From a virus (lineage: Duplodnaviria; Caudoviricetes): a stretch of 64,000 bases of DNA. The DNA is taken from positions 1,292 through 65,291 of the IMG/VR virus record IMGVR_UViG_3300025889_000109; one strand, 5' to 3'. The notes under the pieces are model-generated. The model searched no databases, was not told the origin of the DNA, and saw only the letters and a list, made by a program, of their open reading frames with translations. Within the stretch, counting starts at the first letter, position 1, and each line of letters starts with the position of its first letter. Of the stretch, positions 29,576 through 62,095 are shown piece after piece. The translations under genes were made by a program, and so were the position numbers.

Positions 29576-29648
29576 AGGTCTTTGGTTTTAAGGTTAATAA
29601 ATAATTGTTTGGTTATATACTATATTACATTGAATTGCATATTTTTAG

Positions 29649-32393: not shown

Positions 32394-32703
32394 GAGGTAA
32401 ATAAAAAGCAGCCCCACCCGGCTTGAAATATTACGTTAGATAATTATAGGTTATGTATTACACGTAACTACTTGACTACCAGCCACTTAAACAAAACCAC
32501 TTTTACAATACCACCCCCCAACTGTTTGTATATCAATATGTTATGTTTTTAGGTTTTTATATAACTTTTACAAAGTAAACACGAAACTATTTGGATAATA
32601 TATATGAAAATAAATAATAAAGTTTTTAAAAAAATAAAAATAAAATTACAAAGTAAGCACGAAGCAAATTGGATAATATAAATGTAACCAAAAAATAGAA
32701 ATT

Positions 32704-32850
32704 ATGAAAATGTATAAAGTAACTAAAACAACACAATGGAATTGTAAAGGCAATATGCGAAACTATATTAAATATATGAAAGCAAATAGTATTGAAGAAG
32801 TTATAAAACATTTTGGAACTGAAAATATATTAGAAGTAGAAGAATGTTAA
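32704..32850 (+). CDS. Early small hypothetical protein (48 aa)
   Basis: MKMYKVTKTTQW...; downstream of promoter copy 2, ends at copy 3. Confidence 0.55.
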   Translation: MKMYKVTKTTQWNCKGNMRNYIKYMKANSIEEVIKHFGTENILEVEEC

Positions 32851-32906
32851 TTACAAACTAAATACGAACCTCATCGGATAATATATATGAACTTTAAAAC
32901 ACACAC

Positions 32907-33047
32907 ATGCAACTAACTAAACAAGAACTCAACCTCATCTATCATTGCCTACAAGATTGTGCTAACTCCGATGACTGGCAACATATGCAAGAACCCATCT
33001 GGGGAACATTAAGCAAAATACAGCAAATGGCTAATAATATTAAGTAA
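32907..33047 (+). CDS. Early small hypothetical protein (46 aa)
   Basis: MQLTKQELNLIYHCL...; AAAACACACAC leader. Confidence 0.55.
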   Translation: MQLTKQELNLIYHCLQDCANSDDWQHMQEPIWGTLSKIQQMANNIK

Positions 33048-33122
33048 AAATGCTTTTCAAGCTAACAGACTTAGCTTAATAACAGTAAACAATAAAACAT
33101 TAACAAATAAAACACACACCTT

Positions 33123-33299
33123 ATGACTACTAAATTAAAACGTAAAATTGAAAAACAAAACAAATCAACTGAAAAGAAAATGGGTACTTATCTCCTTGGT
33201 ATGAAAGGAACTACAAAAATATCCTTTGCTAGAAATGCACACTGGAACCATATTGACACGACTAAAGTCTACTATGCTTACACTAGACTACAAGCCTAA
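33123..33299 (+). CDS. Early small hypothetical protein (58 aa)
   Basis: MTTKLKRKIEKQ...; AC-rich leader. Confidence 0.5.
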   Translation: MTTKLKRKIEKQNKSTEKKMGTYLLGMKGTTKISFARNAHWNHIDTTKVYYAYTRLQA

Positions 33300-33801
33300 C
33301 ACGATACCAAATGGATAATATAAACGTAAAACAAAAGCAAATGAAAGTAATTGACTGGAACATAACTGGAAGTTTAACCAAAAACAAATACAACCTCAAC
33401 TTAAAATATGTTGATGGCACAAAAAAAACAATAACTGATACACTAACTGAATTAACTAAAATAATTAAAACAATATGAACACATCACACACAAAATTAAT
33501 GGACTGGGTAAACACGCTTGATTTACCATGCGAAGAAAAGATAAACAGAATATACAAGTACTACGATTGGCCACTGAGCTATGATGAGACAAAAGAATAC
33601 TTAATCAACAATTAATATGCTAAACGAATTGCAAATACTAAAAGGTAAAATACAAATGATTGACGAGCTGAAGCTTGACAATATGACGATTGACCAACAA
33701 GAGCAATTGCTATACACACACCAGCGTTTAATTGACGAATACAATAACTTAAGAAACGAAATTAGAAAAACATATATACTATGATGATACGACGAACCAC
33801 A

Positions 33802-34092
33802 ATGAACGAATATCTAATACAAGAATTCTTAAAAGATAACTTAAAAGGTTATGAAGCAAGTCACAATGGCCATTGGTATTTCTCTCTTGAAAACAATACA
33901 CTTTATGGGGGTAAAATACTAAAGCTTAGAAATGATATGGGCTACACAATTATCAGAATAAATAAAGACAACATATATTACTGTGCTGAGCGTATACAAG
34001 AAACATTAAGAAACTTAAATAATATAATCGAACAAGAAAAATCAATTAACGAATATTGTAGCAAGAATGCTTGGACATATTCAGGAACTTAA
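33802..34092 (+). CDS. Early hypothetical protein
   Basis: ORF track 33781-34092; likely start MNEYL. Confidence 0.55.
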   Translation: MNEYLIQEFLKDNLKGYEASHNGHWYFSLENNTLYGGKILKLRNDMGYTIIRINKDNIYYCAERIQETLRNLNNIIEQEKSINEYCSKNAWTYSGT

Positions 34093-34491
34093 AAATAAAT
34101 ATATGGAAACACTATTTCAATTACAAAACCTCGACACAGGCTTTTTATTAGGTCTATTATTAACTGGAGTTATTTTAATTTTAACTGAATTATCATGATA
34201 GATATGAGACCAAACCCATTAATTAAACAATACCACGACAAACTACAAGATACTGTAGATTTGATTGATGAGCTAGTTGAGCTGGGTGTTAATTATGAAT
34301 TCTTTATGAATGCACAAATTTCACATAAGAATTTAAAAAAGATTAAAAAACTTTTAAAATATATAGGATGAATACAATTGAATGTAATTATTGCAAATCA
34401 ACAGAAGTAACATACAACCAATTAATTATGGATAGTTATTGTGCTGAATGTGGTGAATGGCAAGACGGTGAATAACAAGACAATTAATAAG

Positions 34492-34665
34492 ATGACAGCA
34501 AAATACATAACTGTAATTGATTATCATCAAGGCAATGTAAACACATACCCTATAGAATTATGGGATATGGATAATAAAGATATAATTGAAACACTCCTCG
34601 AGCTGGGCCATATATCTACAAATTGCAAATGGTTAATACACACAGACGAACCCATGACACATTAA
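34492..34665 (+). CDS. Early hypothetical protein, paralogue of 35004-35210
   Basis: YITVIDYHQG...WLIH versus YLTILDYNSG...WMTH. Confidence 0.55.
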   Translation: MTAKYITVIDYHQGNVNTYPIELWDMDNKDIIETLLELGHISTNCKWLIHTDEPMTH

Positions 34666-34733
34666 TTGCTATACACAATTACAAACTAAACACGACAACA
34701 AACAGATAATACTAACAAATAACAAACACAATT

Positions 34734-34934
34734 ATGAAAACATTTAACAGATACAAACAAAATTTAAAAATGGTTGGTAACGACGTCTATTCATATGATA
34801 CACACGTTGCTGAAATAAAAGACGGTAAACTATACAAATTAAAATGGCATGTTTTAGGGGTTGGCTCAGCGTCACGAACAACAACAAAGCATATTAATTA
34901 CGTCGCAGAAGAATTAAACCTTGAAATTGCATAA
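34734..34934 (+). CDS. Early hypothetical protein
   Basis: VYSY.THVA.I...S.TTTKHINY; flanked by repeats of about 70 bp. Confidence 0.65.
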   Translation: MKTFNRYKQNLKMVGNDVYSYDTHVAEIKDGKLYKLKWHVLGVGSASRTTTKHINYVAEELNLEIA

Positions 34935-35003
34935 TTTGCTATACACAATTTACAAAGCAAACACGACATTATCAGGATAATATTAACAAATAACAAACAC
35001 ACT

Positions 35004-35210
35004 ATGCACTATTTAACAATTTTAGATTATAACTCTGGAATAATTATCCAGATAGACATGGAAGAAGTAACAGGATACGACTACCATTGGTCAACTGAAG
35101 GATTTGAAAACTTCATAACTGAAGACTTAAAACTAAATCTTGATGAAATTAACTGGATGACACATTCAGACCCAGATATTAGAACAAATAGAGATTTTGA
35201 AAACCTATAA
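35004..35210 (+). CDS. Early hypothetical protein
   Basis: Promoter copy 6 plus TAACAAACACAC leader. Confidence 0.6.
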   Translation: MHYLTILDYNSGIIIQIDMEEVTGYDYHWSTEGFENFITEDLKLNLDEINWMTHSDPDIRTNRDFENL

Positions 35211-35224
35211 ATAACAAACACACT

Positions 35225-35443
35225 ATGACAATTATTTTAACACAAAATGAAGAACCAATCATGGGTATAGACGGTCTAATGTATGTAGACGGACGATTAA
35301 GTATTGATAACGTTCGATTAAAAGTAAAAGAGCATAATGACTCACTAAAGAAAAATTTTCCACACAAAATAGCTGATGGATTTTATTTTGCAGGGTCAAG
35401 CGGTTATCCATTAAAAAGAATTTCAAAAACATATTCATTATGA
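35225..35443 (+). CDS. Early hypothetical protein
   Basis: TAACAAACACAC leader; 72 aa. Confidence 0.6.
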   Translation: MTIILTQNEEPIMGIDGLMYVDGRLSIDNVRLKVKEHNDSLKKNFPHKIADGFYFAGSSGYPLKRISKTYSL

Positions 35444-35557
35444 TAACAGAATGCTCATACTGCAATGAACCATTACAAGAAGAAGAAATAGAATTTTATA
35501 ACACATACGTAGATGCAATGCCACTTTGCACAAACTGCGGAATTAAATTATGGTAAT

Positions 35558-35737
35558 ATGAACAAAATAGTACAACAAATGGCCGACCATTGTATTGAAG
35601 TTATTGACGAATACATTGACAACACAATACACTGGCAACTTGACGACGAAGACCTTGAAGGTAGCGACTTAGATGAATTAGAATTAAAAATTAAACAACA
35701 AATATTATTTACATTAATTAAAAGAGTAACAAAATGA
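35558..35737 (+). CDS. Acidic early hypothetical protein
   Basis: ORF track 35513-35737; likely start MNKIV. Confidence 0.5.
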   Translation: MNKIVQQMADHCIEVIDEYIDNTIHWQLDDEDLEGSDLDELELKIKQQILFTLIKRVTK

Positions 35738-36060
35738 CACACATTGAGCAACTAGAAAAATTACTAAATGTAAAAATTATTGAAGACTGGGAGTGGAATT
35801 CTGAATTGCAAATCTATACTCAATCAACAGCCGATGGCTATGAAGTATATATAATAACTCATAACCCTAAAGAACTTGACTGGGAAAATGATGTATACTA
35901 TTACGAACCAAGCTTTGATGATATTATTGAACGCATTGAAGAAGTTGAAAGCTATAATGATGAACCTGCAATTATCTATTGTTCAGATATTGAACAATTC
36001 TTTAATGAATATGAAATAGAAAATTATATTGAACAACATAAAGACGAAGAAGATGACTAA
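35734..36060 (+). CDS. Very acidic early protein
   Basis: 108 aa, strongly Glu/Asp-rich. Confidence 0.6.
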   Translation: MTHIEQLEKLLNVKIIEDWEWNSELQIYTQSTADGYEVYIITHNPKELDWENDVYYYEPSFDDIIERIEEVESYNDEPAIIYCSDIEQFFNEYEIENYIEQHKDEEDD

Positions 36061-36258
36061 AACTAAAAAAGAAATGCCATATGATTTTTGGAACCACGGT
36101 ATTAATCCAATTTTAGGGTATAGATGGACACAACCACCTATGACACCACAAGAATCAAAACGTAATAAAAATGAATATCCAGAAATTGACGATTACAATC
36201 CAAACACGGAATACTCTGGATAATATTAACAAATAACAAACAATTAAAATTAAATATT

Positions 36259-36489
36259 ATGAACACACAATTACAAAATTACTTAGACCTGTTAAACAAA
36301 GTTGAACGCATTGAAAAATTAACTAATGGCGACTGGGATACAAGATACTATCTTGAAAAAATTATCCCACCACTTTGGGCCGATGGATTTGATGTTGAAG
36401 ATATAATTGATTACATAACAATTAAAATACACAGCACAATAACAAAGCTTGAAAACGAACAACAAATTATAACAACAAACACAAAATAA
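36259..36489 (+). CDS. Early hypothetical protein
   Basis: Downstream of promoter copy 7. Confidence 0.55.
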   Translation: MNTQLQNYLDLLNKVERIEKLTNGDWDTRYYLEKIIPPLWADGFDVEDIIDYITIKIHSTITKLENEQQIITTNTK

Positions 36490-36645
36490 TGGCAGGTAAT
36501 AAATTTGACACACAATTTGCTATACACAAACCAAAAATTTATAGCTTAACTTTCAAAGATTTGTATAATGAAGATTGTACAATGACTGGTACACCAAGTC
36601 AAGTTATAAACTATATACTTAAACAGCAACTATAATATATATAAT

Positions 36646-36827
36646 GGTCCTCTACCACGTTGGCTTCGGTGAGGATAAAGTAGCGTTTTAAGAGCCCAAT
36701 TAAAGGACACCATCATTACTATTATTTTTTTGTTTTCATTTGTGTGTTTGTTAATGCCCTCTTGGGCAGACGTAGCCGGAACGGTTAAGAAGGCTAGGTA
36801 GCCAGCGCCGAATAAAGCTGGCAATAT
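36646..36827 (+). ncRNA. Candidate structured sRNA with a U/G-rich tract antisense to early-gene leaders
   Basis: GC-rich island without a credible ORF; hairpins 36648-36675, 36755-36768, 36773-36796, 36801-36822; tract 36731-36753 complementary to TAACAAACACA..ATG leaders. Confidence 0.55.
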
Positions 36828-36916
36828 GGGCGTGCTAAATACTGACAAAGTTTGAAAATACACTATCGGTATCTATAGGGATGATAGAAGCGAGGGTTCG
36901 AGTCCCTCCACGCTCT
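36828..36916 (+). ncRNA. tRNA-like element (acceptor stem and T arm, no canonical D or anticodon arm)
   Basis: GGGCGTG pairs with CACGCTC; T arm GAGGG-TTCGAGT-CCCTC; internal CTATC/GATAG helix; no encoded CCA. Confidence 0.6.
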
Positions 36917-36936
36917 CTAAATTTAAATCAAACACT

Positions 36937-37206
36937 ATGACAAATCCAATTGACGATCGAATTGAGGCAAAGCTTATATCTAAAATTGCACATTATAGAT
37001 TAAATATTCGTACTCAATTCAGAAACAGACACAACGTTATGTGGCCCGAATTAACTTACAGAGTAATTATGGGTGACATTAAGAATTTAAGAGTATGGTT
37101 ACGCATAGCTGAATTAATCGATGCTGGGCAAGACCGTGTACCAAACAAATCAAAAACCCCGTATGCAATATACCCTGCATACTTAGCTAAACGATTAACA
37201 TTATGA
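36937..37206 (+). CDS. Hypothetical protein
   Basis: 89-aa ORF with AAACACT leader. Confidence 0.55.
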   Translation: MTNPIDDRIEAKLISKIAHYRLNIRTQFRNRHNVMWPELTYRVIMGDIKNLRVWLRIAELIDAGQDRVPNKSKTPYAIYPAYLAKRLTL

Positions 37207-37339
37207 TTATAGATGTACGATCTGAGTATTCAGTATTTATAACAATAGGTACTGAAACATATTATATAGACAATTCAACTGGTGAACATTTAATGGAACA
37301 CTGGGAAACTGATACCGAATATACTAAACCTTTATACTA

Positions 37340-37543
37340 ATGACAATACAAGATTTAAAACTATACGTTGAAATGAAAAAGAAACGTAATGCCGAAAAAT
37401 GGCAAGCTGAATGTGGTGTTCACGGTCATTGTAAACCATTGACTGATGCTGAATGGCAAAAATACCGTGACATTATATTTTCAGGTAAAGACAACTACAA
37501 AGTTAAATTTGCACATAACGAAATGTGGAATTTTACAAGGTAA
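37340..37543 (+). CDS. Hypothetical protein
   Basis: 67-aa ORF. Confidence 0.5.
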   Translation: MTIQDLKLYVEMKKKRNAEKWQAECGVHGHCKPLTDAEWQKYRDIIFSGKDNYKVKFAHNEMWNFTR

Positions 37544-37555
37544 ACACGAATAACT

Positions 37556-37969
37556 ATGGATATTTTAAACAGATACAAAGAAAAGACTTCACCTAAATAC
37601 ATATTAAATTTAGTTGAAAAAGAATTGAATTTACCAAACCTAAAATCTGAAATACGTACACGTGAACGTGTTCAAGCTAGATTTATATATTTTAAATTAG
37701 CTAGAACATTTTGTATGTATTCAAGCTTATCAGCTATAGGCCGTGAGGTAAATCGTGATCATGCTACAGTACTACATGGACTAAGTAGATATGATGAAGA
37801 AGCTAAATACGACATTTATATGGAAGACGTATACAATAAAATATATAATGATATTGTATTGACTAAGTTGCCACCAGCTAAAGAAAAAAATATAGACAAA
37901 GTATTCAAAGATATTATATACCGATTAACTAAATTAGAAAACCAATTAAATGCTATACCCAATGATTAA
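37556..37969 (+). CDS. DnaA C-terminal-like HTH DNA-binding protein
   Basis: R.R..VQARFIY..LAR...SLSAIGREVNRDHATVLHG matches the DnaA domain IV signature. Confidence 0.75.
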   Translation: MDILNRYKEKTSPKYILNLVEKELNLPNLKSEIRTRERVQARFIYFKLARTFCMYSSLSAIGREVNRDHATVLHGLSRYDEEAKYDIYMEDVYNKIYNDIVLTKLPPAKEKNIDKVFKDIIYRLTKLENQLNAIPND

Positions 37970-39803: not shown

Positions 39804-40413
39804 TAGAAACTTAAATTATTTTCACCGGAATAGAATAGTCTATAGACGAGATCCTATAAATGATACCCCTACTGAAATTTTTAGTTGGGGTAAATTTTAT
39901 AAAAGTGGTACTTATGAATGTTATCATTTATTTAGAAATTCTTCTAAAATAAATACGTTTAAATCATTTAAATGGCATATATTTGTATTATGGTACTTAA
40001 ATCCTAATATGAATAAAGAAGATATTTTAGCTTTAGCAAATCATATGGCTAATAAAGATAATGGATTTATAAGTATCAAGCTAAGTAATAACGCCATTAC
40101 AAACCTAATTGATGAAATTTATAAACTTGACCTTGATCAACCACCAAAAAACAAAATGCGTAAAATAATATTTAATGATCATTCAGGGCTAGAAACAAAT
40201 GAGAAGTTGAGCATCGTAGGTAAATTAATAGGTAAGACTAGATTAGCGGAACCAGAAGATATATATGAAGCAATGTTGCATATACATGATGAAAGTAAAA
40301 AAATAACTATATCAAAGATTGCAAAAATGCTTAATGTATCTACAAGAACAATTTATAGGAATATTACTAATGAAATTAGAGAGGAAAAGATTCTATTAAA
40401 TGAAGAAGTATAA
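39796..40413 (+). CDS. DNA-binding protein with a C-terminal HTH (candidate replication initiator or regulator)
   Basis: ITISKIAKMLNVSTRTIYRN. Confidence 0.65.
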   Translation: MSHRNLNYFHRNRIVYRRDPINDTPTEIFSWGKFYKSGTYECYHLFRNSSKINTFKSFKWHIFVLWYLNPNMNKEDILALANHMANKDNGFISIKLSNNAITNLIDEIYKLDLDQPPKNKMRKIIFNDHSGLETNEKLSIVGKLIGKTRLAEPEDIYEAMLHIHDESKKITISKIAKMLNVSTRTIYRNITNEIREEKILLNEEV

Positions 40414-41131
40414 TGTAGAAAATTATATCCGTTATAAAAATGATTTAGACGAGACTCTTCAAAGAAAAATAAAAAATGAAAGAGAAAAAATAATAGTTGA
40501 AAATTTGCCATTAGTTGAAACTATTGCACGTAAGTTTTCTACATCTGATCAAGCATCAGGTGTTTTAGACATTACAGATATGATACAGGAAGGATCAATT
40601 GGATTAATATATGCTGTAGATCGTATTGATTGGGGAACAATAACTGATTCAGTTGATCCGGAACGTACATTGAAATCATTTCTATCAAAGCGAATTAAAG
40701 GTGCTATCCGTAGAGCTATTGATATTAATAGAGGAAATATTAGAATACCTGAACATAAATTAAATGATATGCGCAGAAATTCTGAACAAGAAAAGAAAAC
40801 TATTGAATTATTTTTTAATAGTATATTTTCTAGTATAGACAATGATGAAGAAAAGTTTATGCAGATAGAAGATAAAACAAAAGAATATAATATAGATATT
40901 CTTAATAAATATCTTTTAGGCATAATGGAAGCACACTTAAATATAAAAGAATATGATGTGCTGCGTATGAGCTACGGTCTTGACTGTGATAAAATGTCCG
41001 CTAAAGAAATTGCGGATAAATTAAAAATAGACGGGACGGCTGCTTATGTACGTATTTCGCAGATAAAACGTGATGCAATTAATAAATTAATAGAGAACGT
41101 AGATCCTGCGCAAGTAATTGATTTTGTGTAA
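40400..41131 (+). CDS. Phage RNA polymerase sigma-70-family factor
   Basis: ENLPLVETIARKF..DMIQEGSIGLIYAVDR..IKGAIRRAI..IRIP (region 2); VLRMSYGL..EIA..RISQIK..AI.KL (region 4). Confidence 0.9.
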   Translation: MKKYNVENYIRYKNDLDETLQRKIKNEREKIIVENLPLVETIARKFSTSDQASGVLDITDMIQEGSIGLIYAVDRIDWGTITDSVDPERTLKSFLSKRIKGAIRRAIDINRGNIRIPEHKLNDMRRNSEQEKKTIELFFNSIFSSIDNDEEKFMQIEDKTKEYNIDILNKYLLGIMEAHLNIKEYDVLRMSYGLDCDKMSAKEIADKLKIDGTAAYVRISQIKRDAINKLIENVDPAQVIDFV

Positions 41132-41168
41132 GTTATGATTCAAAATCAATGTAAGTTTGAGTTTAATC

Positions 41169-41183
41169 ATGTAATATATATAA
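41169..41183 (+). promoter_or_regulatory. Candidate middle/late promoter core ATGTAATA
   Basis: The same (A/G)YGTAATA core precedes operons on the minus strand at 61512, 29623, 32290, 32429 and 32456. Confidence 0.45.
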
Positions 41184-41184
41184 T

Positions 41185-52053: not shown

Positions 52054-52157
52054 TTCTTCTTAGTTTTAGAAGTTACAGGTACACAATTAGGTACTTTCTT
52101 ACCATTTTTATTTTTAGTACCAATCATTTGGTATCCTGTCCAGCATGCTTTTTTCAT
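52050..52157 (-). CDS. 35-aa peptide with CW.GY...G.K...GK.VPNCVP motif
   Basis: ATGA overlaps with both neighbours. Confidence 0.6.
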   Translation of the reverse strand: MKKACWTGYQMIGTKNKNGKKVPNCVPVTSKTKKK

Positions 52158-55100
52158 CTTGTTTTTCTTGTATTTCTAGAACCTCTGGTTCTTGATTTTG
52201 AACTTTTATATATTACTCCTGATTTTTTAGTTTGTTTTTCAATCATACCTAAATCCCATTCAGACCATCCAAGTGATAATGCTATTGATTGCCATAATTC
52301 TGTTTCAGGTTTCATAGCAGTATAAATATGATCAGCTTTTTGCACAATTCTATCAACAGGTATATTTGCTACTGCAGATATAACTTGACCACCAGCTAAA
52401 AATGCTGGATTTTCTAAATTAAAGCCTTCAGTAAATACTTTTTCTTTTGATTGTTTATAAGTAAAAGTTTTGCCGGCTGATATTAATTTACGTAATTTAG
52501 AATTTACAGGTGGTGAAATTGTGGTTGCTGCGATTGCCGCTTGAGTATAATCAGGGCGGCTTGACTTAGCTTGATCAATTATTTCCATTATTACGTTTTT
52601 AGCGGTTGATGCTACAGCACCATAAACTCCAGCGCCGCGTAAAAATGTATCAAGCATTGAATTCCCAACTTTAAAATATCTTTCTTTTTCTTTTTCATCT
52701 TCTTCATCAGAAAATAATAAAGCAAAAAGACCTTGTTGTAAAGCAGAGAATATTATATTCTGTATTACACCATAATACATAATCTTACTTACATTTGTCT
52801 TCCAATCTCCTCTATTATTTATTAAATCTAATGCGGCCTTCTTTTGAATGCGAGCATATTGCATTGGTGTATTACCCCAAGCAAGTATTAAACGCCCTAA
52901 AGAACTTGCTTGTTGCATTGAAATTCTATCGGGTCTTGCAGATTGTTGAGACTCTTCAGCTGTTTCTTGAAAATCTTCAAATGCTTTCTTTTGTGCTTCT
53001 TCTTGCGTTAGTCCCTCTTTTAAATATTTATTTATTCTATTGCGATAAAATGTTGCACCACCAGAAGCGATAGCAAATGAGTCAGCAATTTGAGTTGGTG
53101 TAAATCCAGCTTTTAATATTGTACTTAATACTGCTTTAGCTTTATTTTTAGAGGTAGCTGCCGCATTAGCAATTTCATCAGCATTAATATCTATTTGTAA
53201 ACCAGACCTTCTTTGCTTTAAAAAGTCTGATGTAAATAATTCAACAAAATCTGACCAATATTGTTTTTGATTAGCAAAAGCTTTAGCAGCATTTATTGGA
53301 TTATTATCTGTAAAATTAATAAAGTTAATTGCAGATATTGTTTGAAGTAATGCAGAACGAGAGTTAAAGAACATTACAGTTCCAACGGAATTATTAATCC
53401 ATTCTTGAAATGCTCTTTCTTTTTTAGTAACACCCATTCTTTTATTTCTGCCATTCCACATTCTATAAAGCATGTCATCTAATGACTCTATATATGATGT
53501 TCCGTATAACGCCTTAAGTTTATTTTTATTTTTATCAGAAAATATTATATCAACATTATCCTTCCATGGTTGCAAATATTCTTTTCTTTTTACATCATTG
53601 ATATAAGAAACAAGGTCAGTTGTAATATCTCCTGCTGTCCAACCTGATGTAGGATCAGGATAACCATCAACATTTAATACCATTAATTTATCAGCAAAAG
53701 CTTTTAAAGCAGCATTATTACGAATATATTTTAAATTATCATTTAAATCGGCTTTACTCATACCCATTTCTTTTGATGTCATATCAACGCCTTGAGTATG
53801 CCAAATATATATACGTACAGAGTCTTGATTTCTAAAACCAGTTTCGTTTTGTTTATTTAAACCAGCTGGCACATCTTTTTTAATTTGTGCTTTTAAATCT
53901 GCCCAATCCCTAAGTGCTCTTTGTTTAGCAGCTTCATATTGTTGAATACCACGAGAAAATGGTTTTAATAAGTTTTCCTTATACCATTCCATCTGTGCAT
54001 CACCAGTTTTGCCTTTGCCTAAAGTTGTGTATAGCAAACCTACAAAATCATCAGCATCATAAGGTACAAAGAATTTAAATTTACCTTTACCTCTTCCTAA
54101 AAGTTCTGCTTTAACAGGTGAATATTCTTTATAAAATTCTACGCCTGTAGAATCTTGTAATATTTTATTAAATTCAGTATCTAATGATTTAGAGGCTTTT
54201 ACAGCTTGCGATCTATATTTTATATCATATGCAGATAATGTTTCTGCTACGGCTTTAACATTTTTCAATGCATCATCAGCAAAATATACATCATTATACC
54301 CTAAATTTAATTTAGAAGCAATCCAGTCAGCTTTTGCTTGCGGCGAACCGTTTCCTAAGCCAATTATATTTTCTAGTCTAAATGGCAACCCTAAACCTTC
54401 TAAGAAAGGTTGTATTGCATATTTAGCTTCAGCTGGTCTTGCAGTTAATATAAATAAATCCTCATCACCTCTTTTATCCAATATAGCTTTTGCTACATCA
54501 AACATAGGGCCTTTTTCACCTTCAATAACTTTACTAAATTCAGTAAAATCAAATTCAGCTCCTTGTTGCAATAAATCATCACCTTGTTTTGCAAATTGTT
54601 CAGCATTTAATTTTCCTTTAGTGCCGTCAGGCATTGTGTATAATACATTAGATTTAGATCTTGCTAGTGTATCATCAAAATCAAATACTCTTAATTTTTT
54701 ATTTGTTGATTTAGAAGGTTTTATTACTAAACTTTCTGTTAATAAATCTTCTAATTCTAACTTAGGTAAATTTTCATTATTAAAAATTTCAATAACTTCT
54801 TTTTGATTATATCTTATTACATTTACGCTACTGCCTTTTATTAAATCACCATTTTTATCCCTTGGCCCATTACTTTTAAAACCGGTAGAATTTATAATTT
54901 TATCATAAGATTTAGGTATTATAGCCACTCTAAATCCTTGCATAATATCATTAAATGTAAATTTATAGTCTTTTATAGTTATATATTTAGCTAAATCGGT
55001 TAAAGTGTCAGATGCTGTTTGTGTATGTTCATATCTATAATCACTATCGGTTAAACCATCTATTTTAAATTGCAACCCTGGATAAGCAGCCGTTCTAATT

Positions 55101-58100
55101 AAAGCATTTATGCTAGAATTAAATGTAGCTAAAATCATACCTACATCATTTTTCGTAATTTCATTATTTGTATATAACTGCTTTATAGAATTTATAATTT
55201 TTTCTAATCCTTCTCTTTGCGTTTGCGCAAAATATAATCTATTTTTTAATTGTTCCCCTTCAAATTTTCCACTGGTAAATCCTTTTGGTGTTTGATTAGG
55301 GACTGCTAATATTGGTATTTCTTCTCCATTTATATTAACAAATCTTTTTCGCTTTTTATATTCTACACTATTAAATATTTTTTTTGCTTCTTCAAAAAAA
55401 TCTGCTCTTCCTATAAATAAAAATTGATTTGTTCTAAAAGAATTTTCATCATTTGGGTCTTCTAATTCTTTTACAATTAATTTATTTAAATCTTTTTCTG
55501 GTATAAATTTTCCGCCAATTTTACCCCAACCGCCTTGTACTGTGGGTAATAAATATTGAACTGCTTTTTCAGGGCCTAATATTTTTGCTAATTTAAGCAT
55601 TGCTTTTCTAGCAGATAATACTTGATTTTTATTTTTAAAATCTATAGCTCCAGCTGGAAGGTCTAATGCTATTCTAGCTTTACTAAATTTAAAATTAATA
55701 GGTCTACCAATTATACTACTTACTTTGTCTACAAAATTATCTGTTAATTCTATTCCTTGTAATTCTGCAATATCCATTGCTTTTTGCATAATAGCAGGAT
55801 CAGATAATACCTCCATTGTGGCGTCTAAAGCAAATGCTTCTGACAATGCTTCCGCTAAAGCAGTTTTTCTAGCACCTTGAGTTGATCTTCCAACTTCATT
55901 TCCTAAAAAATATTTAATCCATTCAGCTTTACTTATTTTCTTTTTAGTAAATACTTTATTACCTTCTGCTGTTTTTTCTCTAACCTGTTTGCCATCTTTC
56001 ATGACAGGCTCAGCAAATTCTGTTAACCTTTTATTTATTATAGATTGTGGTAATGCATCATATATAGCCTCAAAATTATTAGAAAGAAAAGACCTATAAT
56101 CCTCTGTTCTACCCATTAATTTTGCAATAGGATTTTTAAGTTCTGTTCTAAAACTTTTTTCTAATTCCGTTTTAAAAGCTTTTTCTGTAATACTTGGTAA
56201 TTTTGTTCCAAAAGTTTTTCTTACCGCATCAAATACAATTGGTTTAATTTCATCACCAATATTCATTTTTTTGCGTAAACTTTGTAATTTTTCAGATGGT
56301 TTTTCTATAACCTCTTCTGTAATTTCTTCTGTAGTTGTATCTGTAATACCTTTAGCTTCAGTTACATCTAATTTAAAATCAGTGTCTAATATACGATTAG
56401 CTGCTTCAATAGCTCTTTTTTCTAATTGGCCTTGAATATATGTATTTAAAGTAGCCCCCTTAGATATGTCATATTTTTGTATTAAATCTAATAATCCTCT
56501 TGGGCCTAATTCAATTTCACTTTGTAATAATTCAAAATCAAATCCAGGAACATTTTTATATTTATTTGTTATACGCGCAGTTAAAGGTTTATAGGCTTTT
56601 ATTATTTCAGCAGCACCTTCTTTACCTTTTTCTTCATATATTTGATTTACTTTAATTGCTTCAGAAGCTTTAGATTTTAATATATCTCTTTTTTGTTGTT
56701 TTTGAGTTTTTGTAGAAATCAAAGAACCTGATATTTCACCTTTTGCTATTTTAATTTGTTGTAAGGTTAATGTGCCTTTTTCTAAAGAAGAATTAATATC
56801 TTTTATAAAATTTAACACATCTTGTCCTTTATCAAATTTTGCAGTAATACCTATAGTACCAATAGCTTTTCTTATTAATCCACTTATATTATCATCAACA
56901 ATTTTTATATCACCAGTTTTTAATGCATCAGAAAATAAAGTCAATATTTCTTCTGCTTTTGAAGCTTTATCAATACTTTTATCTTTTTTATATTGATTTA
57001 ATCTTTGTCTAAATTCTGAATTTTTTATTTGTTCAGGATCTAATCTATTAAGTTCTTCTTCTAATGCTTTTCCTAAATTTAATGCAGTTTCAGGGTTATT
57101 TTTTAAAGATTGAAATAAAAGGGCATGGATAAACTCATGATTAGCTACATTAACTCCCACTCTGCTTTTAGCAGCTTGTTCTTTATTTATAATAATTATT
57201 TGTTTATCAGTATTTTTATCTTGTATTATAAAACCATAATCATTAGATCCCTTTTTGTATTCATCAGAATAATTATTTTTTTCTATAAATTCATTTATTT
57301 GATCAGCATTATTAAAAGCTTGAATATCTAAATTTTGAACATATTTTGCCGCTTGTTGTGTTTTATCAATACCTTTTGAAACATCTTCAGCATTTTTTCT
57401 TATATTATATATAGCATTTTGTGCTTGATTTGCTTTTTGTTGTAATTCTAATATTAATTCTTTTTTTATTTCATCAGATAATTCATTATTAGAATTTATT
57501 CTTTTAATTTCATTAGCTGTAGAAATTAAAGTTTTAGAATAATTATCAATATCATTTATTTGATTTTCTGTTAAAGCAAATACAATTTTATTATTTTTTT
57601 CAACAGATGATTTAAGCTCTGTTATTATAGTATTTTGTCTATCAGTAATAAGTTTTATATCTTTTTCAGAAATGCCTTTTTGCATTTTAGATCTTTCTAG
57701 CATTCCAAATAAAGATACTTTTTCAGCAATAAAGTCTTGCTCTTCTTTTGTTCTTATATTAGAAGCCGCTACTATACCTTTTCCAGCTAACGAAAAGCCT
57801 GTTGCGCCAAATGCTCCTTGTAAAAAGCTTTCAATACCCTCTTTTGATTTCATAAAAGCCCAGGCATCATCCTCAGCTTCAATTAAATTTTTTCCTTCGG
57901 CTAAAGATGTATTAATATTTTCTAATCCGACATCAAACCATTCTTGTAGACCATTCGTGCCTGTTGTTAATCCTAAATCAACAATATTTTTTAATACAGA
58001 AGTTGAAGAATTAAATATTGAATTTGAAATTTTTTCTAGCCCTGCTTTTTCTAAACCCCATCTTAAAACACCAATTGCTGCCGGCGTAAACATTTCTAAT

Positions 58101-59050
58101 TTACCTGCAGCAGCTAATTCTTCTAAATTTTTTCCAGTAGTTTCTGAAACTTTTCTATTATAATCAGCAACTGTTTGCCCAACAATTTCTAATCCTAATC
58201 CAGCACCAAAAGTTAGCCCGCTTACTGCCATGCTAGATCCTACGTTTGCAAAAGCATTTATTAAAGCCCCTGCTCCAAATTTTATATTTTCTTTTATTGT
58301 TTTGTCCTTGCCTATATCTGTAAAGCCATAGGCAGGCTCTATCATGCGAGAATACGTTTTTAATTTATTTTCAACTTTACCTAATTGTACTCTATTATAT
58401 TCATTTATTTTTTTACCCGTTTTTTCGCCAAATATATTGTAAACTATATCTGTATCTGAAAGTAAAAAATGATATAAATATTCTCCATAATCATCAATTT
58501 GAGCAAACCTATTCATAGCCTGCCCAGCTGTATTTGAAATTGATTGACCTAAAGTTTTTGGAAGTTCTTTTTGTTTTTTTCTTTCTTCTAATTCAGCCGC
58601 AGAAACTCTTTGTGTTTCTTCATATTCTGTTATTGGTAAAAGCTGGCCTTGATCTTTAGGTAACATTTTTGGTATACCCATAAGATCCAAAGCGGCAGAA
58701 GCTTCTCTTGATTTATACTCATTTGCGGTTATTATAACTTCTTCTAGTTCAACAGGTTTTACTGCCCAATTGTATTCATCAATTTGCTCTCCTCTTAAAA
58801 TAATTTCACCTTCCTTTGTGTATTCCGATAAACCATTTTCCGGCTTGGAATCCATAACGGGTGCTGCATTTTCCTCCACAACCGCACCCGGTGTTGTGGG
58901 AGTTGTCTTTCCCAATTCTGCTGGTTTTCTTTTATCAATTAAACCATCTTGTTTTGCTTTTTCAATATAAGAATCAATATCCATATTAGATTCTTTTGCT
59001 GATTCTTCTACTTGCTCTAAAGTAATAGGCATTCCGTCAAATTCAAACAT
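52154..59050 (-). CDS. Giant multidomain protein (2298 aa), putative ejection protein: zincin HExxH, sigma-region-2-like segment, HAD domain
   Basis: HEFIH (57125-57139); AYKPL..I..KY..DFE..GLL..IQKYD.SKG..LNTYI (about 56385-56615); VFDFDDTL..ILTAR..K..FADD (about 54230-54695); third and largest gene of an ejection-like trio. Confidence 0.65.
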   Translation of the reverse strand: MFEFDGMPITLEQVEESAKESNMDIDSYIEKAKQDGLIDKRKPAELGKTTPTTPGAVVEENAAPVMDSKPENGLSEYTKEGEIILRGEQIDEYNWAVKPVELEEVIITANEYKSREASAALDLMGIPKMLPKDQGQLLPITEYEETQRVSAAELEERKKQKELPKTLGQSISNTAGQAMNRFAQIDDYGEYLYHFLLSDTDIVYNIFGEKTGKKINEYNRVQLGKVENKLKTYSRMIEPAYGFTDIGKDKTIKENIKFGAGALINAFANVGSSMAVSGLTFGAGLGLEIVGQTVADYNRKVSETTGKNLEELAAAGKLEMFTPAAIGVLRWGLEKAGLEKISNSIFNSSTSVLKNIVDLGLTTGTNGLQEWFDVGLENINTSLAEGKNLIEAEDDAWAFMKSKEGIESFLQGAFGATGFSLAGKGIVAASNIRTKEEQDFIAEKVSLFGMLERSKMQKGISEKDIKLITDRQNTIITELKSSVEKNNKIVFALTENQINDIDNYSKTLISTANEIKRINSNNELSDEIKKELILELQQKANQAQNAIYNIRKNAEDVSKGIDKTQQAAKYVQNLDIQAFNNADQINEFIEKNNYSDEYKKGSNDYGFIIQDKNTDKQIIIINKEQAAKSRVGVNVANHEFIHALLFQSLKNNPETALNLGKALEEELNRLDPEQIKNSEFRQRLNQYKKDKSIDKASKAEEILTLFSDALKTGDIKIVDDNISGLIRKAIGTIGITAKFDKGQDVLNFIKDINSSLEKGTLTLQQIKIAKGEISGSLISTKTQKQQKRDILKSKASEAIKVNQIYEEKGKEGAAEIIKAYKPLTARITNKYKNVPGFDFELLQSEIELGPRGLLDLIQKYDISKGATLNTYIQGQLEKRAIEAANRILDTDFKLDVTEAKGITDTTTEEITEEVIEKPSEKLQSLRKKMNIGDEIKPIVFDAVRKTFGTKLPSITEKAFKTELEKSFRTELKNPIAKLMGRTEDYRSFLSNNFEAIYDALPQSIINKRLTEFAEPVMKDGKQVREKTAEGNKVFTKKKISKAEWIKYFLGNEVGRSTQGARKTALAEALSEAFALDATMEVLSDPAIMQKAMDIAELQGIELTDNFVDKVSSIIGRPINFKFSKARIALDLPAGAIDFKNKNQVLSARKAMLKLAKILGPEKAVQYLLPTVQGGWGKIGGKFIPEKDLNKLIVKELEDPNDENSFRTNQFLFIGRADFFEEAKKIFNSVEYKKRKRFVNINGEEIPILAVPNQTPKGFTSGKFEGEQLKNRLYFAQTQREGLEKIINSIKQLYTNNEITKNDVGMILATFNSSINALIRTAAYPGLQFKIDGLTDSDYRYEHTQTASDTLTDLAKYITIKDYKFTFNDIMQGFRVAIIPKSYDKIINSTGFKSNGPRDKNGDLIKGSSVNVIRYNQKEVIEIFNNENLPKLELEDLLTESLVIKPSKSTNKKLRVFDFDDTLARSKSNVLYTMPDGTKGKLNAEQFAKQGDDLLQQGAEFDFTEFSKVIEGEKGPMFDVAKAILDKRGDEDLFILTARPAEAKYAIQPFLEGLGLPFRLENIIGLGNGSPQAKADWIASKLNLGYNDVYFADDALKNVKAVAETLSAYDIKYRSQAVKASKSLDTEFNKILQDSTGVEFYKEYSPVKAELLGRGKGKFKFFVPYDADDFVGLLYTTLGKGKTGDAQMEWYKENLLKPFSRGIQQYEAAKQRALRDWADLKAQIKKDVPAGLNKQNETGFRNQDSVRIYIWHTQGVDMTSKEMGMSKADLNDNLKYIRNNAALKAFADKLMVLNVDGYPDPTSGWTAGDITTDLVSYINDVKRKEYLQPWKDNVDIIFSDKNKNKLKALYGTSYIESLDDMLYRMWNGRNKRMGVTKKERAFQEWINNSVGTVMFFNSRSALLQTISAINFINFTDNNPINAAKAFANQKQYWSDFVELFTSDFLKQRRSGLQIDINADEIANAAATSKNKAKAVLSTILKAGFTPTQIADSFAIASGGATFYRNRINKYLKEGLTQEEAQKKAFEDFQETAEESQQSARPDRISMQQASSLGRLILAWGNTPMQYARIQKKAALDLINNRGDWKTNVSKIMYYGVIQNIIFSALQQGLFALLFSDEEDEKEKERYFKVGNSMLDTFLRGAGVYGAVASTAKNVIMEIIDQAKSSRPDYTQAAIAATTISPPVNSKLRKLISAGKTFTYKQSKEKVFTEGFNLENPAFLAGGQVISAVANIPVDRIVQKADHIYTAMKPETELWQSIALSLGWSEWDLGMIEKQTKKSGVIYKSSKSRTRGSRNTRKTR

Positions 59051-61503: not shown

Positions 61504-61549
61504 ATTGTTATTATTACATTTTAATCAAGCATGTTAAAAGTTTTTTACT

Positions 61550-62095
61550 CTATTGTAATAAGAATCCTGAAATTTGTAGTGTAAATTTATCTTTCATGCC
61601 CGCATTAGCAGATAAATGCAATGGTTTTGAATCCCATATATAGCCATCACCAGCCTTCCAGTTGTCAGATGTTTTCCAAATATTATCTTCTTCTGATTTA
61701 TATTGTAGCATATGCCCTACTTTCCAGTCTTCAAGATATATATTAGCTCTAACCTTTAATCTTTTATCATCAGGAAATTTTTTATTTATTTGATAAAAAG
61801 TATCTCTATGTAAAGCAATTGTATTACCAGGAGGTTGTAAAATGCTTGATATTGTAACAACTTCTATACCTGTTTGGTTACCTAATTCTTTAAAATCAAC
61901 TTGTTTGTCCGTATACCAAAGCTGTTGTATTACAGTATTATCTTTAGTTAAAGTTTCTCCAAGTCCGTATTCTTCATGTATATCAGTAAGCTCGTGTAAT
62001 TGATGCGCTAAACAAGTTCCTTTATGTACTGAGTAGTCTTGCATTGGAGGTAAAAAGTAACTCCAATCATAATTTAATTTTATTTTTCTTAACAT
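61550..62095 (-). CDS. 2OG-Fe(II) oxygenase/cupin (Asp/Asn beta-hydroxylase-like)
   Basis: PG..I.LHRD (HxD)...WK.GD...W....H..AN.G. Confidence 0.7.
   Translation of the reverse strand: MLRKIKLNYDWSYFLPPMQDYSVHKGTCLAHQLHELTDIHEEYGLGETLTKDNTVIQQLWYTDKQVDFKELGNQTGIEVVTISSILQPPGNTIALHRDTFYQINKKFPDDKRLKVRANIYLEDWKVGHMLQYKSEEDNIWKTSDNWKAGDGYIWDSKPLHLSANAGMKDKFTLQISGFLLQ

What the first reader, a model, noticed from the sequence alone, without database searches (positions are those of the whole stretch)
56385..56615. Sigma-factor region-2-like domain inside the giant putative ejection protein
Seen: AEIIKAYKPLTARITNKYKNVPGFDFELLQSEIELGPRGLLDLIQKYDISKGATLNTYIQGQLEKRAI. Established: the sigma-70 region 2 consensus reads roughly L...Y.PLV..IA.KY....DFEDL.QEG..GL..A..KFD.SKG..F.TY....I...I. 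Podoviruses eject large internal proteins with their DNA, and crAss-like phages deliver a whole RNA polymerase this way. Inference: this phage may instead inject a sigma module, perhaps released by the neighbouring zincin domain. That would redirect host RNA polymerase to the non-host-like early promoters before any phage gene is expressed.
Basis: partly seen in the sequence, partly recalled or inferred. Interest (0 to 1): 0.78.

Follow-up and report, generated by a model that had tools for sequence, protein, structure and literature searches.

The report
Sigma-like domain in giant phage protein
A giant protein at the end of the particle-building genes of a marine phage contains a real but very divergent copy of the part of bacterial sigma factors that grips RNA polymerase, which suggests, without proving it, that the phage delivers a polymerase-capturing module together with its DNA.

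Summary
The peptide exists as quoted: residues 814-881 of a 2298-aa ORF (window 52154-59050, minus strand). It is a genuine, divergent sigma-70 region-2 (sigma2) domain. A family profile aligns to cellular sigma region 2.1-2.3 (hhalign 84% probability, E 7e-6; neighbouring-domain control 0.6%). An AlphaFold model (pLDDT 82-90 over the domain) has sigma2 entries in the first 24 rows of 48,161 PDB chains (Z 8.7-5.9). Pfam's Sigma70_r2 model does not detect it.

No sigma3 or sigma4 follows. The next domain folds confidently and matches nothing known. A zincin-type HExxH peptidase lies about 155 residues upstream.

The gene occupies the slot where three GenBank relatives carry giant proteins, two of them annotated structural. 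That, with the architecture, fits a virion-delivered 'polyvalent' protein. Packaging is inferred, not shown.

A complex prediction places the region-2.2-equivalent surface on residues 280-312 of a Flavobacterium beta-prime (score 0.67, controls 0.00). This may be recall of solved holoenzymes.

The phage also has a complete free-standing sigma gene. An eight-copy, 34-nt early-region motif co-occurs with both, so which factor reads it is open.

The family has 318 clusters, none among GenBank phages.

The parts
52154..59050 (-). Giant ORF of 2298 aa (P0001), a polyvalent-type multidomain protein and the last large gene of the minus-strand structural block.
   Evidence: ORF list and translation. 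134 homologues of 1263-4022 aa among 1049 candidates, all from metagenomes. The same slot holds a 3859-aa CDS in MW202828.1, the 1691-aa 'structural protein' gp101 in Cellulophaga phage phi38:1, and the 3694-aa 'structural protein' gp18 in Flavobacterium phage elemoF.
56360..56671 (-). Sigma-70 region-2-like (sigma2) domain, residues 794-897. The hhalign-aligned core (regions 2.1-2.3) is residues 811-878, window 56417-56620.
   Evidence: Invariant across 61 full-length homologues: G809 I816 P835 L842 E845 I846 G849 G852 D855 Y860 L868 R879 I881 A883 L888 F892.
56891..57253 (-). Zincin-like metallopeptidase region, about residues 600-720. HEFIH is at residues 638-642 (window 57125-57139), with a downstream Glu at 701.
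   Evidence: HExxH located. H, E, H and E701 are invariant in 26 sequences. 16 of 26 members match Pfam Peptidase_M78 (best E 3.3e-5), 5 match SprT-like and 5 match DUF3267. The window's own copy matches none at E<=1.
55661..56290 (-). Conserved domain of unknown fold directly after sigma2, residues 921-1130, joined to it by an acidic low-confidence linker.
   Evidence: AlphaFold2 pLDDT 90.3, pTM 0.86. No Foldseek match at E<=0.001 and no sigma among the rows shown. Best VIA Z 5.2, no sigma in 50 rows. Profile against PDB gave nothing relevant. Atlas gave no usable hit.
57395..58288 (-). N-terminal Gly-rich and coiled-coil region, residues 255-552. It is the only part with detectable similarity to the syntenic giant protein of phi38:1.
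   Evidence: hhalign of the 61-sequence alignment A1 against phi38:1 gp101: 93.7% probability, E 1.9e-7, 284 columns. Low-complexity and coiled-coil composition may inflate this.
54206..54724 (-). HAD / polynucleotide-kinase-phosphatase-like domain, residues 1443-1615, with a DFDDT motif at 1457. It lies in the part that varies between family members.
   Evidence: phrog_415 'polynucleotide kinase', E 1.9e-6. DxDxT motif. Residues about 1130-1620 have no majority consensus in A1.
52157..54193 (-). C-terminal region, residues 1620-2298, which carries the largest share of the protein's conserved positions.
   Evidence: Dense nearly invariant columns. The nearest named Atlas clusters carry LPD39 (28% of members, score 0.95) and LPD38 (88% of members, score 0.93). 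These are leads only.
40400..41131 (+). Separate, complete phage sigma factor gene of 243 aa, with both region 2 and region 4.
   Evidence: phrog_351, E 4.1e-20. Pfam Sigma70_r2 E 1.3e-6 (above cut-off) and Sigma70_r4 E 2.2e-4. It is the only PF04542 hit in the genome.
32568..37566 (+). Eight copies of a 34-nt motif, TTACAA-n3-AAACACGA-n8-GGATAATAT. Several end about 20-33 nt before the ATG of a small plus-strand ORF. These are candidate early promoters.
   Evidence: 8 matches at <=3 mismatches, all on the plus strand; 0 in every one of 100 shuffles. ORF positions. 1-7 copies, always on one strand, in 7 of 7 other genomes with the giant protein; 0 in 3 of 3 GenBank relatives without it.

Best explanation
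Residues about 794-897 are a divergent but genuine sigma-70-family sigma2 domain. It covers part of region 1.2 through 2.4 and has no sigma3 or sigma4. It is built into a 2298-aa polyvalent-type protein of a complete 65.3-kb podovirus, whose closest cultured relatives infect Flavobacteriaceae.

The most likely working is as follows:
1. The giant protein is made late and packaged in the capsid like the syntenic giant proteins of related phages.
2. It is expelled with the DNA at infection.
3. Its sigma2 module docks on the beta-prime clamp helices of host core RNA polymerase, through the surface equivalent to sigma region 2.2. The module may act in cis, or after cleavage by the zincin domain about 155 residues upstream.
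4. This gives the phage first call on core polymerase before any phage gene is expressed.

My preferred sub-reading (about 0.2 on its own) is a minimal, -10-only initiation factor in the manner of T4 gp55. It would act at the TTACAA...GGATAATAT motifs of the early region. A second sub-reading is a tether that holds polymerase at the entering DNA.

Shown: the domain identity, the neighbouring zincin motif, the synteny and the conservation. Predicted only: the beta-prime contact. Inferred: packaging, delivery, cleavage and any effect on transcription.
For: Domain identity:
- hhalign gave 84.2% probability, E 7.4e-6, against a sigma region-2 profile. The neighbouring-domain control gave 0.6%.
- The same register was found against the phage's own sigma. 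Query 23-95 aligned to residues 30-106 of that sigma, matching Pfam's r2 stretch at 32-107.
- The first 24 of 48,161 chains are sigma entries, Z 8.7 (rmsd 2.8 A over 86 residues) down to 5.9. They include an entry I take to be T4 gp55.
- Foldseek local matches: 5h6x_A, 4x8k_A and 8b3z_C at 2.5-3.8 A.

Selection: 16 columns within residues 809-892 are invariant across 61 homologues whose overall identity to the window's protein is 28-72%.

RNA polymerase contact:
- The complex with F. johnsoniae beta-prime residues 1-420 scored 0.67 (median of 3 runs); the best of 3 controls scored 0.00.
- That mark was reached by 58 of 80 solved complexes and 2 of 110 mismatched pairs.
- The runs share at least 21% of contacts and the partner's pLDDT is at least 81.
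- The interface is beta-prime 280-312 (an i, i+3/4 helical pattern) plus 41-47. It meets partner positions 42-61, which are residues 835-854 and the region-2.2 equivalent in the alignment.

Delivery:
- The gene closes the terminase, portal, capsid and muzzle-like protein block.
- Giant proteins occupy the same slot in 3 of 3 GenBank relatives examined, and 2 are annotated 'structural protein'.
- The N-terminal 300 residues align to phi38:1 gp101 at 93.7% probability.
- An invariant zincin motif is present. Iyer et al. 2017 (PMC5512222; abstract and passages read) name zincins as the commonest domain of injected polyvalent proteins and propose that they process them.

Need: no beta-prime-type polymerase domain was found in the genome, with the control positive in 14 of 14 genomes.

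The domain is embedded, not free-standing. Of the best 150 of 318 profile hits, 104 are at least 1500 aa (median 2158). Only one protein of 57-182 aa was found, on a 1.9-kb contig.
Against: - Pfam Sigma70_r2 never reaches threshold. All HMMER E-values against sigma factors are marginal (0.015-0.7). With the longer domain profile a dynamin-like protein outranked sigma.
- The Trp-Trp pair of region 2.3 is not kept. By the and 89 alignments those positions are G-Q in the window and K-F in the family consensus. Several region-2.2 positions carry different invariant residues (E845, R851, D855). The mapping to E. coli sigma-70 numbering is from memory.
- No sigma4 was found, so no -35 reading of the classical kind.
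- There is no virion proteomics for this family.
- No GenBank phage carries the protein (tblastn). The profile found it in 0 of 3 relatives, with positive controls at E 1e-45.
- The 'structural protein' labels come from GenBank annotation. I did not see their experimental basis.
- The complex prediction used a stand-in host. Because sigma-core complexes are solved, a pass may reflect likeness rather than retained binding.
- The free-standing sigma co-occurs with the early motif in 8 of 8 genomes and has both r2 and r4. It is an equally good or better reader of a two-part motif.
- VIA Z values of 6-9 are in the range that helical models can reach by chance, according to the tool's own note. The argument rests on the exclusivity of the sigma rows, not on Z.
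Confidence: 0.45

Rival explanations
1. Structural relic. The sigma2 fold was captured long ago and now serves only as a helical building block or packaging spacer of an internal capsid or ejection protein. It has no contact with RNA polymerase.
For: Only 17-27% identity to sigma factors. The melting residues are lost and Pfam does not recognise the domain. It lies between other conserved domains of unknown function. Middling Z values are common for helical domains (note).
Against: The most conserved stretch is the region-2.2 equivalent, including the G849/G852 pair and a hydrophobic face. That is the same surface the complex prediction places on beta-prime. A mere spacer would not be expected to keep 16 invariant positions at 28-72% overall identity.
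Confidence: 0.2
2. Injected decoy. The module binds beta-prime clamp helices only to displace or exclude host sigma factors, shutting off host transcription. Phage promoters are read by host holoenzyme first and then by the phage's own complete sigma.
For: The predicted beta-prime contact. The Trp-Trp melting pair is lost and sigma4 is missing, so promoter opening or recognition may be impossible. A complete phage sigma is present.
Against: Few copies of a giant internal protein could be delivered per infection, which is an inference from other podoviruses. They could not titrate thousands of core molecules. Tyr871, which aligns with the Tyr of the sigma 'TYA' motif, and the RAIEA helix (region-2.4 equivalent) remain nearly invariant. 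That would be unnecessary for a pure decoy.
Confidence: 0.15
3. Not packaged. The giant protein is a late polyprotein that stays in the infected cell. Its zincin releases a gp55-like late sigma module that sustains late transcription.
For: The gene lies in the late block. T4 gp55, a sigma2-only late factor, is among the structural matches (chain identity recalled). Iyer et al. 2017 describe zincin-mediated processing before packaging for P1 DdrB (passage read).
Against: A late-operon product cannot start late transcription. The phage already has a dedicated sigma. The same slot holds annotated structural proteins in relatives. No free-standing form of the module was found.
Confidence: 0.1

Closest known systems
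Sigma-70 family domain sigma2 (regions 1.2-2.4), for example E. coli sigma-70 (1sig), SigB (8x6g), SigE (8b3z) and pro-sigmaK (8vjl)
   Same: The same helical fold (Z 7.2-8.7, rmsd 2.5-3.4 A over 80-93 residues). The same sequence register through regions 2.1-2.3. The Gly-x-x-Gly of region 2.2 and the Tyr of 'TYA' are conserved. The predicted contact is with a helical stretch of beta-prime.
   Different: It is embedded at residues 794-897 of a 2298-aa protein in a structural operon. It is not recognised by Pfam Sigma70_r2. No sigma3 or sigma4 was detected. The Trp-Trp pair is absent, and about three residues are missing before the region-2.4-like RAIEA helix (alignment).
T4 gp55, the late sigma-like factor consisting of a sigma2-type domain only (function recalled; PDB 7d7d)
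   Same: A highly divergent, sigma2-only phage protein. It ranks among the structural matches (Z 7.7, rmsd 2.9 A over 90 residues, 8% identity). It is a precedent for a -10-only initiation factor.
   Different: gp55 is a small free-standing protein made in the cell, and it works with gp33 and the sliding clamp. Nothing comparable is known here, and this domain sits in a putative virion protein.
Polyvalent proteins of phages and conjugative elements (Iyer et al. 2017, PMC5512222)
   Same: A giant multidomain protein encoded among virion genes, with a zincin-like metallopeptidase, enzymatic inserts (HAD/PNK-like) and domains of unknown function. The paper proposes roles that include 'jump-start transcription' (abstract).
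   Different: The word 'sigma' does not occur in that paper's main text. I could not open its supplementary domain tables. The only transcription module it describes in the passages I read is the N4-type virion RNA polymerase.
Virion-delivered RNA polymerases: N4 vRNAP and the crAss-like phi14:2 gp66 (recalled; N4 is also covered in PMC5512222 and in the abstract of PMC13434306)
   Same: A very large protein encoded with virion genes, with a zincin domain in N4, that would act on early transcription before any phage gene is expressed. This phage also has a crAss-type muzzle-domain protein.
   Different: Here no polymerase catalytic domain is detectable. The module would borrow host core polymerase rather than replace it.
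T4 Alt, the packaged ADP-ribosyltransferase that modifies host RNA polymerase (as described in PMC5512222)
   Same: An injected protein that retargets host RNA polymerase at the very start of infection.
   Different: Alt is an enzyme acting catalytically. This would be a stoichiometric binding module.

Membership tests
Sigma-70 family (sigma2 domain) | Sigma2 helical fold | tested here: met
   AlphaFold2 model with pLDDT 82-90 over the domain. The first 24 of 48,161 chains are sigma entries, Z 8.7-5.9. Foldseek local matches of 2.5-3.8 A over 74-95 columns. This is a predicted, not an experimental, structure.
Sigma-70 family (sigma2 domain) | Profile-level sequence similarity to regions 2.1-2.3 in the correct register | tested here: met
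   hhalign 84.2% probability, E 7.4e-6, 64 columns. Control 0.6%. The top two PDB profile hits are sigma factors at E 0.015 and 0.05.
Sigma-70 family (sigma2 domain) | Match to Pfam PF04542 Sigma70_r2 above the gathering score | tested here: not met
   No match in the window's protein at E<=10. Not among the 25 of 48 families shown for 45 members. The six-frame genome scan hits only the separate sigma gene.
Sigma-70 family (sigma2 domain) | Region 2.2 binds the beta-prime clamp helices of core RNA polymerase | tested here: inconclusive
   The prediction passes: score 0.67 against 0.00 for controls. The mark was reached by 58 of 80 solved complexes and 2 of 110 mismatched pairs. At least 21% of contacts are shared and partner pLDDT is at least 81. 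It used a stand-in host protein and the pass may reflect memory of solved holoenzymes. There is no binding measurement.
Sigma-70 family (sigma2 domain) | Region 2.3 aromatic residues for promoter melting (Tyr and the Trp-Trp pair; E. coli numbering recalled) | tested here: not met
   Y871 is nearly invariant and aligns with the Tyr of 'TYA'. The Trp-Trp positions are G-Q in the window and K-F in the family consensus.
Sigma-70 family (complete initiation factor) | Sigma4 (region 4 helix-turn-helix) for -35 recognition and flap binding | tested here: inconclusive
   Residues 921-1130 fold confidently but show no sigma match in Foldseek, VIA-align or the PDB profile search. Pfam finds no Sigma70_r4 in the whole protein. 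The rest of the 2298 residues was not folded.
Sigma-70 family (complete initiation factor) | Confers promoter-specific initiation on core polymerase | not testable with these tools
   This needs in vitro transcription with host core polymerase.
Phage-type polyvalent protein (Iyer et al. 2017) | Very large protein combining several unrelated domains | tested here: met
   2298 aa containing zincin, sigma2, an unknown alpha/beta domain, a HAD/PNK-like domain and a conserved C-terminal region.
Phage-type polyvalent protein (Iyer et al. 2017) | Zincin-like metallopeptidase with HExxH and a downstream Glu | tested here: met
   H638, E639, H642 and E701 are invariant in 26 sequences. 16 of 26 members match Peptidase_M78, best E 3.3e-5. 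The window's own copy is below detection. The fold was not predicted.
Phage-type polyvalent protein (Iyer et al. 2017) | Encoded among virion and packaging genes | tested here: met
   Terminase, portal, virion proteins and the muzzle-domain protein are on the same strand. Synteny holds with three GenBank phages.
Phage-type polyvalent protein (Iyer et al. 2017) | Packaged in the capsid and delivered to the host | not testable with these tools
   The only support is GenBank 'structural protein' labels on non-homologous or barely homologous proteins in the same slot, plus a 93.7% hhalign match of the N-terminal region to phi38:1 gp101.

The most novel reading that the evidence does not exclude
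A widespread group of marine Flavobacteriaceae-type podoviruses injects a minimal sigma factor. After ejection, the zincin domain frees a sigma2 module, perhaps together with the unknown domain that follows it. That module converts host core RNA polymerase into a phage-specific holoenzyme. The holoenzyme opens the TTACAA...GGATAATAT early promoters before any phage protein is made. The phage's own complete sigma then takes over for later genes. This would be a third route to immediate-early transcription, beside host-holoenzyme promoters and injected polymerases.
Probability: 0.2. Interest if true: 0.9.

Novelty: new variant of a known kind. Interest (0 to 1): 0.68.

Why it matters
Phages are known to start their program in three ways:
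- with promoters for the host holoenzyme;
- with an injected polymerase (N4, crAss-like and phiKZ-like phages);
- with injected enzymes that modify the host polymerase (T4 Alt).

A polymerase-binding sigma module carried inside a virion protein would be a further solution. I found no description of one in four full-text searches or in the main text of the polyvalent-protein survey.

The family is large: 318 clusters at 50% identity, with related near-complete genomes of 62-68 kb. The answer would therefore bear on how an abundant group of marine phages takes over its hosts.

It also gives a directly testable object. The fragment is about 100 residues long, has a confident model, and has a predicted partner surface.

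Even if the module proves inert, it shows sigma2 domains evolving beyond the reach of Pfam inside giant phage proteins.

Tried and rejected
- Pfam and PHROGs on the whole protein gave no sigma. The only hits were noise (T3SS_needle_E at E 0.08) and phrog_415.
- A profile of the full-length alignment against PDB was swamped by coiled-coil and designed proteins, so I cut domains out.
- The search for related loci with the single domain found 1 locus. With the alignment it found 165, of which 80 were kept.
- tblastn against GenBank phages found no match for the whole protein, its C-terminal third, or residues 786-1117.
- The sigma2 profile was not found in MW202828.1, phi38:1 or elemoF.
- BLASTP of the domain against the phage's own sigma gave nothing (E 8.5). 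hhalign against that narrow family gave only 7.3% probability (P 0.005), though in the right register.
- The genome-contig scan with the phage-sigma alignment found no relatives. I then fished cellular sigma genes with a degenerate pattern.
- I tested whether a complete sigma is embedded, using the downstream domain. There was no sigma3 or sigma4 match and Atlas was blank.
- I considered the giant protein as a crAss-like or N4-like polymerase. The DFDDT at 1457 is a HAD-type DxDxT inside a PNK-like match in the variable region. PF00623 was absent with a good control. The PF00940 search is uninformative because its control rang nowhere.
- No 19-residue window reaches Kyte-Doolittle 1.6, so I claim no transmembrane helix.
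- Stand-alone small forms: only one fragment was found.
- ARAGORN found no tRNA.
- Papers on phi38:1 (passages only) say nothing about gp101, sigma or promoters.
Full report
**What is at the coordinates**

The quoted peptide is real. It is residues 814-881 of a 2298-aa ORF on the minus strand (window 52154-59050; peptide at 56408-56611). The plus-strand reading of the interval is full of stops. The window is bases 1292-65291 of a 65,291-bp virus record rated 100% complete. Its G+C content is 32%.

**Is it sigma region 2?**

Curated models do not see it:
- Pfam gives no Sigma70_r2 hit for the protein or for a 200-aa excerpt.
- That family is not among the 25 of 48 families shown for 45 family members.
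- A six-frame PF04542 scan of the genome finds only another gene.

Weaker searches, however, point one way:
- 9 of 10 phmmer hits in PDB sequences are sigma factors in the region-2 register, with E from 0.02 upward.
- 8 of 11 NCBIfam hits are sigma models, with E 0.001-0.012.

I collected the family and built alignments:
- 134 homologues of 1263-4022 aa among 1049 candidates.
- 165 IMG/VR loci, of which 80 were kept.
- Alignment A1: 61 full-length proteins.
- Alignment A2: residues 786-1000, 45 sequences.
- Alignment A3: residues 794-897, 45 sequences.

Profile results:
- With A2, sigma hits were present but not on top (E 0.13-1.3; a dynamin-like protein led at E 0.03).
- With the domain alone (A3), the top two PDB hits were SigE (E 0.015) and SigK (E 0.05).
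- For profile-profile tests I fetched cellular sigma genes with a degenerate pattern taken from the phage's own sigma. I then aligned 16 diverse region-2 segments plus that sigma as A6.
- A3 against A6 gave 84.2% probability, E 7.4e-6, 64 columns.
- The control, the neighbouring domain A5 against A6, gave 0.6%, E 0.094, 13 columns.
- Against the narrow family of the phage's own sigma, probability was only 7.3% (P 0.005). The aligned stretch (30-106) nevertheless coincides with that protein's Pfam r2 match at 32-107.

**Fold**

AlphaFold2 on A2 gave pLDDT 82-90 for model residues 10-105. The acidic linker that follows fell to 31-42.

- In Foldseek against PDB, every row shown is a sigma-containing entry. 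Global E-values are weak (0.08-0.4). Local superpositions are good: RpoS 5h6x_A at 3.8 A over 95 columns, M. tuberculosis SigA domain 2 (4x8k_A) at 2.5 A over 81, and SigE 8b3z_C at 2.5 A over 74.
- VIA-align against 48,161 representative chains put sigma factors or sigma-containing initiation complexes in rows 1-24. Z ran from 8.7 (rmsd 2.8 A, 86 residues) to 5.9. Two of those rows (7d7d_F, 9n9q_C) I attribute to sigma-like chains from memory.
- The tool warns that Z below about 13 can arise by chance for helical models. The weight therefore lies on the exclusivity of the rows and on agreement with the sequence register.

I conclude with about 0.9 confidence that this is a homologous, very divergent sigma2 domain.

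**What it lacks**

- The next domain (residues 921-1130, alignment A5) folds with pLDDT 90.3 and pTM 0.86. It matches nothing: no Foldseek hit at E<=0.001, best VIA Z 5.2, and no sigma among the rows shown. The PDB profile search and Atlas were also blank.
- There is therefore no evidence for sigma3 or sigma4. The remaining about 1700 residues were not folded.
- In the alignments, the Tyr of the sigma 'TYA' motif is kept (Y871, nearly invariant). The following Trp-Trp positions are G-Q in the window and K-F in the family consensus.
- Region-2.2-equivalent positions keep G849 and G852 but carry their own invariant residues E845, R851 and D855.

**The host protein**

- About 155 residues upstream of the sigma2 domain lies HEFIH (residues 638-642) with E701. 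All four residues are invariant in 26 sequences.
- 16 of 26 members match Pfam Peptidase_M78 (best E 3.3e-5), 5 match SprT-like and 5 match DUF3267. The window's own copy is below detection.
- Residues 1443-1615 match a polynucleotide-kinase PHROG (E 1.9e-6) and contain a HAD-type DFDDT motif. They lie in the region that varies between members.
- The C-terminal 680 residues carry the largest share of conserved positions. Their nearest named Atlas clusters carry LPD39 and LPD38. These are 'large polyvalent protein-associated domains' and are leads only.
- This architecture fits the polyvalent proteins of Iyer et al. 2017 (PMC5512222). In that paper zincins are the commonest domain and are proposed to process the polypeptide. 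Its main text never mentions sigma (abstract and passages read, supplements closed).

**Is it delivered?**

- The minus-strand block encodes terminase, portal and several 'virion structural protein' families. It also encodes a 1635-aa protein with a crAss-type muzzle domain.
- The giant gene is the last large gene of that block.
- Terminase and portal relate the phage to Flavobacterium (68 records), Cellulophaga (15), Tenacibaculum (2) and Maribacter (1) phages, and to one uncultured record.
- In all three relatives examined, the same slot holds a giant gene: MW202828.1 (3859 aa), phi38:1 gp101 (1691 aa, 'structural protein') and elemoF gp18 (3694 aa, 'structural protein').
- These proteins are not BLAST-similar to the window's protein and lack the sigma2 domain.
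- The N-terminal 300 residues do align to phi38:1 gp101 at 93.7% probability. That stretch is Gly-rich and coiled-coil, which may inflate the score.
- Packaging is thus a reasonable inference at about 0.6. It is not a result.

**Contact with RNA polymerase**

- No beta-prime-type polymerase domain is in the genome, with the control positive in 14 of 14 genomes. The T7-type search was uninformative.
- I ran a complex prediction of A3 with F. johnsoniae beta-prime residues 1-420. It scored 0.67 (median of 3 runs) against 0.00 for the best of 3 controls.
- That mark was reached by 58 of 80 solved complexes and by 2 of 110 mismatched pairs. The runs share at least 21% of contacts and partner pLDDT is at least 81.
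- The interface is a helical face of beta-prime 280-312. I take this to be the clamp helices by position; the E. coli numbering 260-309 is recalled. It meets domain residues 835-854, the region-2.2 equivalent.
- Sigma-core complexes are solved, so the pass may show likeness only. The host is also a stand-in.

**The early motif and the second sigma**

- Eight copies of TTACAA-n3-AAACACGA-n8-GGATAATAT lie on the plus strand between 32568 and 37566. None occurred in 100 shuffles.
- Several copies end about 20-33 nt before small ORFs.
- The motif does not resemble the Bacteroidota primary-sigma consensus as I recall it (TTTG / TAnnTTTG). I did not test this.
- Downstream, at 40400-41131, is a complete 243-aa sigma gene with r2 and r4.
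- All 8 genomes with the giant protein (the window's own and G001-G007) contain both the motif (1-8 copies) and this sigma. All 3 GenBank relatives without the giant protein lack both.
- Phyletic pattern therefore cannot say which factor reads the motif. The complete sigma is at least as good a candidate.

**Distribution**

- The A3 profile finds 318 cluster representatives at E<=1e-3, and 267 at E<=1e-10. No flood of ordinary sigma factors appears.
- Of the best 150, 104 are at least 1500 aa long, with a median of 2158.
- Only one short protein (106 aa, on a 1.9-kb contig) was found in a dedicated search.
- The module is therefore essentially always embedded in a giant protein.

**Verdict**

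- The sigma2 identity and the zincin neighbour hold.
- Delivery and polymerase binding are plausible but only inferred or predicted.
- Promoter redirection is open, at about 0.2.

Four literature searches found no report of a virion-borne sigma module.

Noticed in passing
window 187-5094 (-): A 1635-aa virion protein carries a Pfam crAss_MUZ_C (Crassvirus muzzle protein C-terminal) domain, E 6.9e-11, and matches phrog_14478. The low-coordinate part of the gene (window 476-1868) contains imperfect Gly-codon-rich direct repeats (families D1 and D4).
   Followed up: no
window 39796-40413 (+): A 205-aa protein with a C-terminal helix-turn-helix (Pfam HTH_11, E 3.9e-6) ends inside the start of the free-standing sigma gene. 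The two overlap at 40400-40413, so this may be a partner or regulator of that sigma.
   Followed up: no
L042's record (G003), bases 8520-9255: In one 99%-complete relative, the free-standing sigma gene appears in two pieces (profile positions 1-114 and 94-246), with 2 TAA stops inside the second match. This could be a frameshift, an insertion or an assembly error.
   Followed up: no
window 36891-36908 (+): An 18-nt stretch in a 301-nt intergenic gap resembles the 3' T-arm and acceptor end of tmRNA or tRNA (Rfam RF00023, 13.8 bits against a gathering score of 47, E 0.023). ARAGORN finds no tRNA or tmRNA in the window.
   Followed up: partly
window 27708-29261 (-) and 62095-63579 (-): The phage encodes a GroEL-type chaperonin (phrog_5725, E 1.7e-132). 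It also encodes a Nol-like carbamoyltransferase (phrog_1601, E 4e-96), which lies on the minus strand about 3 kb upstream of the giant gene.
   Followed up: no
window 29576-29648, 41132-41184, 61504-61549: By eye, the short sequence ATGTAATA(T/A)A recurs just upstream of three genes outside the early region. It could be a second promoter class. No statistics were run.
   Followed up: no
proteins P0254, P0259, P0260, P0282, P0337, P0358: Six of the best 150 profile hits show two matched stretches of the sigma2-like profile. Some giant proteins may therefore carry a second, weaker copy.
   Followed up: no
L051's record (G005): One related 66,084-bp genome has direct terminal repeats. Its motif copies lie at 56.0-60.5 kb, within about 6-10 kb of one end. 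The early region may therefore enter the cell first.
   Followed up: no
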